DNA of 47,774 bases from Promethearchaeota archaeon. GTDB taxonomy: Archaea > Asgardarchaeota > Lokiarchaeia > Sigyniarchaeales > SOKP01. The notes under the pieces were generated by a model, which saw only the letters and a list, made by a program, of their open reading frames with translations, was not told where the DNA came from and searched no databases. Shown here one piece after another: positions 22,983 to 23,711 of the stretch. Location of the stretch: contig CP070831.1 of the NCBI GenBank assembly GCA_020344955.1, positions 1,106,091-1,153,864 of the forward strand. Direction: 5' to 3'. How positions within the stretch are numbered: the first letter of the stretch is position 1; every line of letters starts with the position of its first letter. A program made the position numbers and the translations under genes.

Positions 22983-23188
22983 TTAGACTTTTTTTAATAA
23001 AATTTTTTAACTTTGTTTAATTTTTATTATCACTAAGTTCAAAATATATTCTTCTAAGAACCTTAGGACGCATATTAAAGCGGTTTCAATATATAAAAGA
23101 TATTGAAAATTTACCTCGTAAATAACGCGTTCTCATTCTAAAGAATATTTTTTGAATATAGTAAAAAAAAATTAAACGGTGAGAGTAT

Positions 23189-23711
23189 GTGAGTGGAAAA
23201 GGAAAATTAGTTGTTAAAGCATTGGTTACAGGAGGAAGTGCGTCAGGTGGCCCACCCATAGGACCTGCTGTTGGACCTACTGGCATAAACGGAAATCAAA
23301 TCGATTTTCGATGCATACATTAAGGACGTTGTCGATGAAATCAATAAGCAGACAATGGTATTTAAGGGTTTAACAGTACCAGTTAGAATCGAATGTAATC
23401 CAGAAACAAAACAGTTTGAAATATTTATTGAGACCCCTTCTACAGCCTCACTATTACTTAAGGAGGTTGGTGCTGAAAAAGGGAGCTCTGAACCTTCAGA
23501 AAAAAAAATAGGAAATTTAACTCTAGAGCAAATTCAAAATGTTGTTGAGGGGAAGAGAGAGAAATTTTTGGATAAAACATACAAATCAGCTGTAAAAACA
23601 GTCTTAGGAACAGCTTTATCAGTTGGATTAACAGTAGAAGGAGAAGACCCAAGGATCATCCAAAAACGAATTGATAATGGAGAATATGATGATAAAATGA
23701 AGGAGGAGTGA
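23189..23711 (+). CDS. rpl11: 50S ribosomal protein uL11, coding sequence interrupted by a 28-nt BHB intron (exons 23189..23288 and 23317..23711)
   Basis: GTG 23189 behind a GGTGA box encodes [34 protein letters not shown], the conserved uL11 N-terminus. The remainder, [25 protein letters not shown]...GNLTLEQI..., is in the +1 frame. Removing 23289..23316 gives a gap-free 164-aa uL11. Confidence 0.85.
23289..23316 (+). other. bulge-helix-bulge (archaeal endonuclease-type) intron inside the rpl11 coding sequence
   Basis: Central 4-bp helix GCAU(23283-23286)/AUGC(23311-23314), with 3-nt bulges 23287-23289 and 23315-23317. Inner 8-bp helix 23290-23297/23303-23310 with a 5-nt loop. Outer pairs 23282-23318 and 23281-23319. 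Confidence 0.75.

What the first reader, a model, noticed from the sequence alone, without database searches (positions are those of the whole stretch)
23178..23360. Essential ribosomal protein gene rpl11 is interrupted by a 28-nt bulge-helix-bulge intron
The ORF track finds only the last 118 aa of uL11. GTG 23189, behind GGTGA 23178-23182, encodes [34 protein letters not shown], the conserved uL11 N-terminus. That frame then runs into GNQIDFRCIH and TAA 23321-23323. The rest of the protein ([17 protein letters not shown]...) is in the +1 frame. Removing exactly 28 nt gives [18 protein letters not shown], colinear residue-for-residue with archaeal uL11 (remembered pattern GPLGVN-VMQVVKEINEKT).

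The RNA folds into a textbook archaeal splicing motif:
- Outer pairs G23282-C23318 and U23281-A23319.
- First 3-nt bulge A23287-A23289.
- Central 4-bp helix G23283 C A U23286 with A23311 U G C23314.
- Second 3-nt bulge A23315-A23317.
- Inner 8-bp helix C23290..C23297 with G23303..G23310 (one G-U pair) and a 5-nt loop.

Cleavage after the second nucleotide of each bulge is the geometry I verified on the canonical 37/38 intron of tRNA-Ser in this same window. It excises 23289..23316 and yields GGC AUA A|AC AUU AAG, exactly the required in-frame junction. BHB introns in protein-coding genes are, to my knowledge, documented essentially only for cbf5 in Thermoproteota. One in a universal ribosomal protein gene of an Asgard-like archaeon would make translation capacity dependent on the tRNA splicing endonuclease and RtcB ligase.
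Basis: partly seen in the sequence, partly recalled or inferred. Interest (0 to 1): 0.9.

Follow-up and report, generated by a model that had tools for sequence, protein, structure and literature searches.

The report
tRNA-type mini-intron splits rpl11 gene
A 28-base insert breaks the reading frame of the ribosomal protein uL11 gene in a Loki-type Asgard archaeon, it folds into the RNA shape that the tRNA-splicing enzyme cuts, and many related genomes carry this insert or three others like it, so it is very probably a real protein-gene intron of a kind I found reported only for one other archaeal gene.

Summary
GTG 23189 opens the uL11 N-terminus, and that frame stops at TAA 23321-23323. Removing 23289-23316 (28 nt) gives a 164-aa protein with both Pfam L11 domains complete.

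The insert sits in a bulge-helix-bulge (BHB) fold, and the canonical cut sites give exactly that junction. Such folds are common by chance in this 29% G+C window. The weight comes from comparison.
- Of 70 Loki-type rpl11 loci from many independent assemblies, 47 are interrupted. The inserts occupy four sites within the first 100 nt of the gene, and up to three occur in one gene.
- Every insert has BHB or relaxed BHB geometry at the boundaries that restore the conserved protein.
- Every unspliced gene has a premature stop. Insert lengths fall in all three classes modulo 3.
- At this window's site, 5 of 8 hairpin pairs show compensatory changes.
- Synonymous codons next to the insert are fixed to pair with it only in alleles that carry it.

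Two tRNA genes in the window need the same cut rule. I found no RNA-level evidence, and no report of mRNA BHB introns outside cbf5.

Verdict: a genuine BHB intron (confidence about 0.88), a new member of a known kind.

The parts
23178..23182 (+). Shine-Dalgarno-like GGTGA ahead of the rpl11 start
   Evidence: Read directly from the sequence. It lies 6 nt upstream of GTG 23189.
23189..23288 (+). rpl11 exon 1: GTG start, codons 1-33 and the first base of codon 34 (Asn)
   Evidence: Translation. The N-terminal 34 aa are conserved in 70 related loci.
23281..23282 (+). Outer helix h, 5' strand (U,G). Pairs with 23318-23319.
   Evidence: G-C or G-U in 14 of 14 distinct sequences, U-A in only 6 of 14. 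The helix is weak and is not in the MFE fold.
23283..23286 (+). Central 4-bp helix H, 5' strand (GCAU, exonic: GG[C AU]A). Pairs with 23311-23314.
   Evidence: 98% of cells paired. GGC-ATA codons occur in 14 of 15 intron-bearing alleles against 6 of 47 others.
23287..23289 (+). 5' bulge AA|A. Predicted cleavage after A23288.
   Evidence: Geometry. The same rule yields correct tRNA-Ser and tRNA-Sec in this window.
23289..23316 (+). 28-nt BHB intron (ACGGAAATCAAATCGATTTTCGATGCAT)
   Evidence: Its removal restores the frame and colinearity. The homologous insert is present in 22 of 70 loci.
23290..23310 (+). Inner hairpin h': 8-bp stem (23290-23297 with 23303-23310) and pentaloop AAAUC (23298-23302)
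   Evidence: MFE folds. RNAalifold and pair counts show 5 of 8 pairs with compensatory changes. The loop ending in UC is shared with introns at the other three sites.
23311..23314 (+). Central helix H, 3' strand (AUGC, intronic)
23315..23317 (+). 3' bulge AU|A. Predicted cleavage after U23316.
23318..23319 (+). Outer helix h, 3' strand (C,A)
   Evidence: The AAC codon is enriched in intron-bearing alleles, 12 of 15 against 13 of 47.
23317..23711 (+). rpl11 exon 2: the last two bases of codon 34, codons 35-164 and the stop TGA 23709-23711
   Evidence: Codons 35-46, which lie upstream of the first in-frame ATG, evolve mostly synonymously in intron-bearing alleles.
23321..23323 (+). TAA that ends the unspliced reading frame after 44 codons
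   Evidence: All 47 intron-bearing loci have such a premature stop.

Best explanation
Bases 23289-23316 are an archaeal bulge-helix-bulge (BHB) intron inside the rpl11 (uL11) coding sequence of a Lokiarchaeia-type (Promethearchaeota) archaeon.

How it most likely works:
- In the pre-mRNA, exon bases GCAU (23283-23286) pair with intron bases AUGC (23311-23314) to form the 4-bp central helix.
- An 8-bp intron hairpin and a short 1-2 bp exon-exon helix flank this helix.
- A 3-nt bulge is left on each strand.
- The tRNA-splicing endonuclease cuts after the second base of each bulge. In Asgard archaea this enzyme is reported to be the broad-specificity (alpha-beta)2 type.
- An RtcB-type ligase joins ...GGC AUA A to AC AUU AAG..., giving the in-frame mRNA for a normal 164-aa uL11.
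- Unspliced mRNA can only give a 44-residue peptide.

What is shown: the fold, the exact register, its conservation and covariation, constraint on the exon codons, and translation of exon 2 in its own frame.

What is inferred: the cleavage and ligation themselves, and which enzymes carry them out.

The intron belongs to a family of 28-37 nt mini-introns. They occupy four sites (A-D) within the first 100 nt of rpl11 across Loki-type genomes. They share a hairpin apex (a pentaloop ending in UC, closed by C/U-G). Their patchy distribution implies repeated gain and loss.
For: 1. Exact anatomy and a restored protein with full-length Pfam matches.

2. Comparative survey. Of 70 Loki-type rpl11 loci with a complete 5' end, 47 are interrupted.
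- They come from GTDB representative genomes and JGI or other metagenomes, from many unrelated projects.
- 22 carry the homologous 28-31 nt insert at this site (nt 100 of the CDS).
- The other inserts lie at nt ~50 (36-37 nt), nt 71 (29-36 nt) and nt 83 (30 nt).
- L020, L023 and L064 carry three inserts each.
- 23 loci are uninterrupted and have the identical junction sequence.

3. At every site the BHB cut rule falls on the boundaries that restore the conserved peptide [31 protein letters not shown].

4. Covariation at this site (18 sequences, 14 distinct).
- 92.9% of cells are paired, against at most 41% when the partners are slid.
- 5 of 8 inner-helix pairs have compensatory double changes.
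- 0 of 500 shuffles reach the observed values.
- RNAalifold independently returns the central helix, the 3-nt bulge and the 8-bp stem.

5. Exon synonymous sites are constrained only when the intron is present.
- GGC-ATA occurs in 14 of 15 alleles with the intron against 6 of 47 without (Fisher p = 1.8e-8).
- AAC occurs in 12 of 15 against 13 of 47 (p = 6e-4).
- The one GGT exception (L067) has the matching intron change, GUAU pairing with AUAU.

6. All 47 interrupted genes have a premature stop if read colinearly, including those with inserts of 30 or 36 nt. Insert lengths cover all three residues modulo 3.

7. Codons 35-46 lie between the intron and the first in-frame ATG. Among intron-bearing alleles they differ at 613 synonymous against 157 non-synonymous pairwise codon positions, and IKDVVD is invariant. 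That frame is therefore translated.

8. The same cut rule is needed twice more in this window.
- tRNA-Ser(GGA) has a 17-nt intron.
- A tRNA-Sec is recognised only after a 32-nt BHB intron is removed from its D-arm. It lies next to a SepSecS gene.
- The organism must therefore have the endonuclease and ligase.

9. Literature: Asgard archaea are reported to have the (alpha-beta)2 EndA with the L1 loop that confers broad specificity (PMC5829648). This enzyme type has been connected with cbf5 pre-mRNA splicing (Yoshinari 2006, cited in that paper's reference list).
Against: - There is no RNA or peptide evidence. Neither the spliced protein of this window nor those of seven other intron-bearing loci exist in the 15-billion-sequence collection. 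The window's own 118-aa ORF is not on record either.
- The outer helix is only 1-2 bp and is not predicted thermodynamically. The 3' cut site is therefore defined less well than in a canonical hBHBh' motif.
- BHB-like patterns are frequent by chance in this AT-rich DNA. Two other good-looking hits in ORFs proved spurious.
- EndA and RtcB genes were not identified among the ten window ORFs I annotated. I did not search for them in these genomes.
- The codon-association tests are not corrected for phylogeny.
- The BHB's 5' half is coding sequence. Translating ribosomes would compete with its folding, so splicing efficiency is unknown.
Confidence: 0.88

Rival explanations
1. Recoding during translation. 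The ribosome shifts frame or hops over part of the 28 nt, with the hairpin as the stimulator (as in T4 gene 60 bypassing or +1 frameshifting). The mRNA would then never be cut.
For: A stable hairpin lies just downstream of the point where the frames must switch. In this window a GAT (23303-23305, frame 0) and a GAT (23310-23312, exon-2 frame) could serve as take-off and landing codons (read). Yokobori et al. note that cbf5 introns were at first confused with frameshifts (PMC2738675).
Against: - Such a product would carry about 7-9 extra residues inside the most conserved loop of uL11.
- Other alleles of the same insert have an in-frame stop before any possible landing site. L003 and L011 stop at codon 36.
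- Inserts of 30 and 36 nt contain in-frame stops. Insert lengths cover 0, 1 and 2 modulo 3, so no single recoding rule fits.
- Covariation extends to the 4-bp exon-intron helix, and the bulges are exactly 3 nt. A frameshift stimulator has no need for either.
Confidence: 0.03
2. A dead or mis-assembled gene. The 28 nt are an assembly or sequencing artefact, or a recent insertion that made a pseudogene, and a working copy lies elsewhere.
For: Only 47.8 kb of the genome is visible, so a second copy cannot be excluded. Gene callers report only a fragment.
Against: - The same insert at the same base is found in 22 loci from many independent projects and assemblers. These include MAG series JBHL, JAHQW, NJBH, JAHPZ and CAY/CAZ, JGI Ga01149/Ga02096/Ga03073 contigs, SMTZ1 and LAZR01.
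- Both exons stay under purifying selection.
- The insert itself evolves by compensatory changes.
- No second rpl11 match occurs in the window, and each related contig gave one locus.
Confidence: 0.02
3. A real EndA substrate used mainly as a switch. Cleavage at the BHB, with inefficient or conditional ligation, tunes or shuts off uL11 synthesis. The element would then be primarily regulatory rather than a neutral, always-spliced intron.
For: - All four insert sites cluster in the first 100 nt of one gene. Neighbouring uL1, uL10, P1 and SecY genes have none.
- The hairpin apex (a pentaloop ending in UC) is conserved across all four sites. This goes beyond what a BHB needs and could be a protein-binding site.
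Against: - 23 of 70 loci, some nearly identical in sequence to intron-bearing ones, do without any insert. A required regulatory role is therefore unlikely.
- Nothing here measures splicing efficiency.
- This reading is an elaboration of the main explanation, not an alternative to cleavage at the BHB.
Confidence: 0.06
4. Another class of intervening sequence: a group I or group II intron, an intein, or a mobile DNA element scar.
For: None specific.
Against: - 28 nt is far below the size of any self-splicing intron.
- Rfam finds no such family in the window at E <= 1.
- The length is not a multiple of 3 and the insert leads to a stop, so it is not an intein.
- I noticed no target-site duplication or terminal repeats at the insert in the alignment; the repeat finder was not run on it.
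Confidence: 0.01

Closest known systems
BHB introns in the cbf5 (pseudouridine synthase) pre-mRNA of Desulfurococcales and Sulfolobales (Watanabe 2002; Yoshinari 2006; Yokobori 2009, PMC2738675)
   Same: A short intervening sequence inside a protein-coding ORF breaks the frame. A BHB fold lies at the exon-intron boundaries. The host lineage has the heteromeric, broad-specificity splicing endonuclease. Distribution is patchy, with inferred gain and loss. Gene callers mis-annotate the gene.
   Different: The gene differs (a ribosomal protein) and so does the lineage (Lokiarchaeia/Asgard rather than Thermoproteota). cbf5, as I understand it, carries one intron at a single position; rpl11 has four insertion sites in one 100-nt stretch and up to three introns in one gene. 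A conserved hairpin apex is shared between sites. cbf5 splicing was shown experimentally; this one has not been.
Archaeal tRNA BHB introns, including those at non-canonical positions and multiple per gene (Marck & Grosjean 2003; Thermoproteales; Atabeyarchaeia/Freyarchaeia, PMC11291895)
   Same: The motif and cut rule are the same. The window itself holds a canonical-position case (tRNA-Ser) and a D-arm case (tRNA-Sec). Size range is similar (17-37 nt). Multiple introns per gene occur in Asgard lineages.
   Different: The host RNA is an mRNA, so the exon halves of the helices are built from codons. There is no mature-domain tRNA scaffold. Splicing must compete with translation.
Unconventional cytoplasmic splicing of HAC1/XBP1 mRNA by IRE1 and RtcB (own knowledge; the pathway is mentioned in PMC13149111)
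   Same: A small non-spliceosomal intron (26 nt in XBP1) is excised from an mRNA at structured sites. The exons are joined by an RtcB-type ligase. The reading frame is switched to give the functional protein.
   Different: The endonuclease (IRE1) and the twin stem-loop recognition motif are different. That system is a stress-regulated switch. No homology is implied.
Translational bypassing in phage T4 gene 60 (own knowledge)
   Same: A short untranslated gap with a hairpin lies inside a coding sequence.
   Different: Bypassing needs matched take-off and landing codons and leaves the mRNA intact. That requirement is not met across the alleles here.

Membership tests
Archaeal bulge-helix-bulge (BHB) intron | Two 3-nt bulges on opposite strands, separated by exactly 4 base pairs, each bulge 3' of its central-helix strand | tested here: met
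   Central helix 23283-23286 with 23311-23314. Bulges 23287-23289 and 23315-23317. The central helix is 98% paired across 14 distinct homologues.
Archaeal bulge-helix-bulge (BHB) intron | Flanking helices on both sides (strict hBHBh') | tested here: inconclusive
   The inner helix is 8 bp and strongly supported. The outer helix is only 2 bp here and 1-2 bp in relatives, and is absent from MFE folds. The motif is best described as relaxed (HBh'-like).
Archaeal bulge-helix-bulge (BHB) intron | Cleavage after the second base of each bulge yields a functional mature RNA | tested here: met
   Excising 23289-23316 gives an in-frame 164-aa uL11. It is colinear with 23 uninterrupted orthologues and has complete Pfam domains.
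Archaeal bulge-helix-bulge (BHB) intron | The structure, rather than the sequence, is conserved (covariation) | tested here: met
   5 of 8 inner-helix pairs show double compensatory changes. 0 of 500 shuffles reach the observed values. Slid controls pair at 41% or less. RNAalifold agrees. Exon codons co-vary with the intron.
Archaeal bulge-helix-bulge (BHB) intron | The host has a splicing endonuclease (EndA) and an RtcB-type ligase | not tested
   The genes were not found among the annotated window ORFs and were not searched for elsewhere. Their presence is implied by two intron-containing tRNA genes in the window and by published Asgard EndA typing (PMC5829648).
Archaeal bulge-helix-bulge (BHB) intron | A spliced RNA (and an excised, usually circular, intron) is observed | not testable with these tools
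   No transcript data were available. Exact-sequence look-ups of spliced products found nothing.
Archaeal pre-mRNA intron of the cbf5 type | The BHB intron lies inside a protein-coding ORF, and the gene is non-functional unless it is removed | tested here: met
   Premature TAA at 23321-23323. All 47 interrupted loci have premature stops.
Programmed frameshift or translational bypass | A slippery site or matched take-off and landing codons, conserved across alleles, with the insert tolerated as extra residues or skipped | tested here: not met
   Several alleles have in-frame stops ahead of any landing codon. In-frame inserts carry stops. Lengths cover 0, 1 and 2 modulo 3.
Group I / group II intron or intein | A ribozyme core of hundreds of nt, or an in-frame protein-splicing domain | tested here: not met
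   The insert is 28 nt. Rfam finds no such family at E <= 1. The length is not a multiple of 3.

The most novel reading that the evidence does not exclude
The inserts at the four rpl11 sites may be copies of one mini-intron lineage that still moves, rather than four unrelated accidents.
- They share a hairpin apex: a pentaloop ending in UC, closed by C/U-G.
- Nearly identical genes differ in which sites are occupied. The window has D, while its closest relative L001 has A. L039 has none while L041 has B. Among L076, L067 and L073, one has none, one has D and one has B.

This would mean that BHB introns are being gained at new positions in a protein-coding mRNA in the archaeal lineage closest to eukaryotes. 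Possible routes are reversal of the endonuclease/ligase reaction followed by reverse transcription, or recombination.

The pattern is 5'-biased and lies in a ribosomal-protein gene, which recalls intron-poor eukaryotes such as yeast.

The conserved apex might also bind a factor that couples uL11 synthesis to splicing.
Probability: 0.35. Interest if true: 0.9.

Novelty: new member of a known kind. Interest (0 to 1): 0.78.

Why it matters
1. It would be the first protein-gene BHB intron outside cbf5 that I could find any record of. It would also be the first in a ribosomal protein gene and the first in Asgard archaea. A 2023 review states that archaeal RNA insertions are predominantly in rRNAs and tRNAs (PMC10732040). 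Endonuclease-based mRNA splicing would then be a routine part of gene expression in the closest archaeal relatives of eukaryotes.

2. Up to three introns in 100 nt of one gene, with presence or absence varying between near-identical alleles, offers a natural system for studying how introns are gained and lost in mRNAs without a spliceosome. It also bears on how splicing coexists with coupled transcription and translation.

3. There is a practical consequence. As far as I know, uL11 is commonly used as a phylogenomic and genome-completeness marker. In about two thirds of the Loki-type loci retrieved here the gene is interrupted, so it is likely to be called truncated or missed. One example is the 150-aa P0052 from the contig of L001. 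This could bias marker sets and annotation. The same blind spot probably hides further interrupted genes.

Tried and rejected
- ARAGORN in default mode and Rfam at gathering thresholds reported no RNA genes in the window. Intron-aware ARAGORN and the Rfam E-value mode were needed.
- A permissive BHB scan gave hundreds of hits and was useless. A strict compact scan is at chance level: 60 hits against about 50 in shuffles.
- Two attractive hits inside or at the end of ORFs were tested and rejected. Removing 14627-14662 would delete 12 residues (MPTAVISVGIGE) from the N-terminal part of the ORF; I judged, without a homology search, that these look like part of a flavin-reductase-like domain. Removing 27470-27503 does not fuse SecY to the next ORF.
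- I looked for the hairpin-apex motif elsewhere. There is one other weak hairpin in the window (7392-7408, plus strand, antisense to an ORF). There is no enrichment in 477 kb of related loci outside rpl11.
- I looked for split uL1, uL10, P1, SecY and CheB genes in 95 related loci and found none.
- I looked for transcript-derived or hand-spliced proteins. None exist in the collection. None of the best 120 homologues equals a spliced product of an intron-bearing locus.
- Seven literature searches combined BHB, intron, mRNA and splicing endonuclease with Asgard, Loki or Promethearchaeota. They found only the cbf5 work and tRNA/rRNA studies. Subscription-only papers are not covered.
- ARAGORN's 'tRNA-Pro with a 1335-nt intron' is spurious. 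It is the tRNA-Sec.
- The pairwise aligner mis-split the L003 insert into 10 + 18 nt. The MAFFT alignment shows a normal 28-nt insert.
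Full report
**What is in the sequence.** The window is 29% G+C.
- At 23178-23182 a GGTGA precedes GTG 23189.
- That frame reads [34 protein letters not shown], then GNQIDFRCIH, and stops at TAA 23321-23323.
- The rest of uL11 is in the next frame. The ORF finder sees only its last 118 residues (23355..23711).
- Deleting 23289-23316 (28 nt) gives a 495-nt ORF.
- The 164-aa product matches Pfam Ribosomal_L11_N over the whole profile (1-58 of 58) and Ribosomal_L11 over 2-69 of 69, with nothing missing at the junction.
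- The gene heads an rpl11-rpl1-rpl10-rpl12 cluster, followed by SecY and an EMC3/TMCO1-like protein.

**The fold.**
- Outer pairs are U23281-A23319 and G23282-C23318.
- The central helix is GCAU 23283-23286 with AUGC 23311-23314.
- The bulges are 23287-23289 and 23315-23317.
- The inner helix is 8 bp (23290-23297 with 23303-23310) and closes the loop AAAUC.
- The bulges lie 3' of their central-helix strands. This is the orientation of the canonical tRNA 37/38 motif.
- Cutting after the second base of each bulge removes exactly 23289-23316.
- Removing 23290-23317 would give the same mRNA.
- RNAfold returns the central helix, the 3-nt bulge and the hairpin in 61-nt and 212-nt contexts, but not the 2-bp outer helix.

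**Is the fold more than chance?** By itself it is not.
- A strict scan for compact BHB patterns gives 60 hits on both strands of the window, against about 50 in dinucleotide-preserving shuffles.
- Hits as good as this one occur 3 times, against a mean of 3.7 per shuffle.
- Two other good hits that lie in or at the end of ORFs turned out to be meaningless.
- What is improbable (about 4e-5 per position) is that such a fold sits in the one register that restores the frame and the conserved protein.

**Related loci.** I fetched rpl11 loci with the C-terminal 118 residues as query. This query is blind to what happens at the 5' end. It returned 53 loci from GTDB representative genomes and 42 from metagenome contigs.
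- The closest are MAGs labelled Promethearchaeota or Lokiarchaeia. A few carry other Asgard labels but have 80-90% identical uL11.
- tblastn with the spliced protein shows that many of these genes are split near the 5' end.
- Alignment to uninterrupted relatives resolves four insertion sites in the first 100 nt of the CDS.

| Site | Position in CDS | Insert length |
|---|---|---|
| A | after nt ~50 | 36-37 nt |
| B | nt 71 | 29-36 nt |
| C | nt 83 | 30 nt |
| D (this window) | nt 100 | 28-31 nt |

- Of 70 loci with a complete 5' end, 23 have no insert and 47 have at least one.
- The breakdown is D alone 18, B 11, A 7, A+B 4, A+B+D 3, C 2, A+C 1 and B+D 1.
- Some loci are duplicates of the same population from different sources. 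Distinct insert sequences number 46, of which 15 are at site D.
- Non-Loki archaea in the sample show no split. These are Saccharolobus, Odin- and Baldr-labelled MAGs, Thermofilaceae and DPANN.

**All four sites obey the same rule.**
- With the boundary fixed by the BHB cut rule, site D shows 4/4 central pairs in nearly all alleles and 8 inner pairs in most.
- Site C shows 4/4 central pairs, 4-9 inner pairs and 2-7 outer pairs.
- Site B shows 3-4/4 central pairs and a 5-6 bp outer helix made of GGNCC/GGNCC exon codons in most alleles. Its hairpin is offset from the central helix, which is a relaxed form.
- Site A shows 4/4 central pairs (UGGG with CCCA) and 4-6 inner pairs where the register was recovered, but no outer helix, another relaxed form. 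For several 37-nt A inserts the scoring script preferred a different register, and I confirmed the 4/4 register only by eye.
- Removing the inserts yields the same conserved peptide in every locus. At site C the removal must use the BHB boundaries; plain alignment-column removal gives Lys in place of the conserved Gly.
- Left in place, every one of the 47 genes has a premature stop between codons 18 and 58. This includes the genes with 30- and 36-nt inserts.
- Insert lengths fall in all three classes modulo 3.

**Covariation at site D.** The alignment has 18 sequences, 14 of them distinct.
- 92.9% of pair cells are standard pairs. At most 41% are when the partners are slid by 1-3 columns.
- Five of the eight inner-helix pairs show changes on both sides that keep the pair.
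- None of 500 column shuffles reaches any observed measure.
- RNAalifold, run without my structure, predicts the central helix, a 3-nt bulge and the 8-bp stem.
- The outer helix is weak. G-C or G-U is kept in 14 of 14, but U-A in only 6 of 14.

**The exons feel the intron.** The 5' strand of the central helix is coding sequence (GG[C AU]A).
- Alleles with the site-D intron use GGC-ATA in 14 of 15 distinct cases. Alleles without it do so in 6 of 47 (Fisher p = 1.8e-8).
- The one exception uses GGT and has the compensating intron change.
- The Asn codon whose third base makes the outer G-C pair is AAC in 12 of 15 against 13 of 47 (p = 6e-4).
- These tests ignore phylogeny and should be read as strong hints, not exact probabilities.

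**Exon 2 is translated in its own frame.** Codons 35-46 lie between the intron and the first in-frame ATG.
- Among intron-bearing alleles they differ at 613 synonymous against 157 non-synonymous pairwise positions.
- IKDVVD is invariant despite many silent changes.
- A truncated protein starting at Met47 would not explain this.

**The splicing machinery must be present.**
- tRNA-Ser(GGA) at 28315..28215 on the minus strand has a 17-nt intron. By my reading it is a canonical 37/38 BHB cut by the same rule; ARAGORN itself reports the position as 36-37.
- A second element at 39241..39117 on the minus strand scored weakly as tRNA-Sec in Rfam.
- A strict BHB predicts a 32-nt intron in it at 39225..39194.
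- After removing that intron, ARAGORN calls a 93-nt tRNA-SeC(UCA) with a 9-bp acceptor stem. The unspliced form is not recognised.
- A SepSecS gene follows it.
- The organism therefore already uses BHB splicing at a non-canonical position.
- Published work assigns Asgard archaea the (alpha-beta)2 endonuclease with the loop that confers broad substrate range (PMC5829648).

**A family of related introns.**
- The hairpins at all four sites share an apex: a pentaloop ending in UC, closed by C-G or U-G. Examples are AAAUC, AUUUC, AUAUC and AACUC.
- A crude automatic finder sees this in 33 of 46 distinct inserts, against 6% of shuffled inserts. By eye, several of its misses do contain the motif.
- Such hairpins are not enriched anywhere else in the 477 kb of Loki-type DNA I hold.
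- The genes for uL1, uL10, P1 and SecY show no splits.
- On a rough neighbour-joining tree of the intron-free part of the gene, near-identical alleles differ in which sites are occupied. This implies frequent gain and loss.
- One possible reason for the hot spot, by inference: in a 29% G+C genome, the Gly/Pro-rich motif [13 protein letters not shown] is encoded by GGN and CCN codons. These are mutually complementary and supply the stable helices that a BHB needs.

**Rival readings.**
- *Frameshifting or ribosome hopping.* In this one allele it could use a GAT/GAT pair. It fails for alleles with earlier stops, for in-frame inserts with stops, and for the spread of lengths. It also does not require a 4-bp helix between two exact 3-nt bulges.
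- *Pseudogene or assembly error.* This is excluded by recurrence in many independent assemblies, purifying selection on both exons, and compensatory evolution of the insert.
- *Self-splicing introns and inteins.* These are excluded by size, frame and the Rfam result.
- *A regulatory role for the cleavage.* This is possible, but it elaborates the main explanation rather than replacing it.

**What is known.**
- In the searchable library, pre-mRNA BHB splicing is documented only for cbf5 of Desulfurococcales and Sulfolobales.
- Yokobori et al. state that there was no confirmation for any other gene, though others had been predicted (PMC2738675).
- The reference list of a 2025 endonuclease structure paper contains only the cbf5 papers on pre-mRNA splicing.
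- A 2023 review says archaeal RNA insertions are predominantly in rRNAs and tRNAs (PMC10732040).
- Abundant tRNA introns were reported in other Asgard classes (PMC11291895).
- Seven searches found no report of mRNA BHB introns in Asgard archaea. Papers outside the library cannot be excluded.

**Verdict.**
- The mechanism is a known one (BHB, endonuclease, ligase), so I file this as a new member of a known kind.
- The gene, the lineage, the multiplicity of sites, the prevalence and the apparent mobility make it considerably more interesting than a single odd locus.
- The missing piece is direct RNA or peptide evidence, which I could not obtain.

Noticed in passing
window 39241..39117 (minus strand); intron 39225..39194: This is a tRNA-Sec(UCA) gene with a 32-nt BHB intron in the D-arm (GGUU[AG|A]...AACC[AA|A]) and an encoded CCA. 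ARAGORN recognises it (9-bp acceptor stem) only after the predicted intron is removed. It lies directly upstream of a SepSecS gene (37726..39192, minus strand). The GTG-started ORF of that gene overlaps the tRNA, so its true start is probably further downstream.
   Followed up: yes
window 28315..28215 (minus strand): tRNA-Ser(GGA) with a 17-nt intron scores 39.5 bits in the Rfam E-value run, above the 29-bit gathering score. The gathering-threshold run nevertheless returned nothing, presumably because of the speed filters. Default ARAGORN also missed it. Intron-containing tRNAs in such genomes are easily overlooked.
   Followed up: partly
L020, L023 and L064, about 2762-2965 / 1762-1965: These three Loki-type loci carry three mini-introns (sites A, B and D; 37, 36 and 28 nt) within the first 34 codons of rpl11. 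I know of no other archaeal protein gene with more than one BHB intron.
   Followed up: yes
window 7392-7408 (plus strand): The hairpin TTTGCC-ATATC-GGCGAA has the same apex type as the rpl11 introns (a pentaloop ending in UC, closed by C-G). It is antisense to the ORF 6996..7805 (minus strand). It is probably chance.
   Followed up: no
window 24451-25341, compared with L015, L016, L030, L038, L039 and others: The uL10 (P0) gene of this window is 78-114 nt shorter, in frame, than in about 20 related loci. I took this for ordinary length variation of the protein and did not examine whether any of the extra segments are in-frame BHB inserts.
   Followed up: no
L001 (contig JBHLNL010000023.1) / protein P0052: The public annotation of an intron-bearing rpl11 is a 150-aa '50S ribosomal protein L11' that starts downstream of the site-A insert. 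Interrupted rpl11 genes are thus deposited as truncated proteins, which matters when uL11 is used as a marker gene.
   Followed up: partly
window 25958-28187: SecY is followed directly by an EMC3/TMCO1-like (DUF106-type) membrane protein gene, immediately downstream of the rpl11-rpl1-rpl10-rpl12 cluster.
   Followed up: no
record titles of L003, L008, L009, L012, L026, L033, L037: MAGs labelled Hermod-, Hod-, Odin- or Thorarchaeota in their records have uL11 80-90% identical to this Loki-type window and share its introns. Either the labels are loose or the bins are mixed.
   Followed up: no
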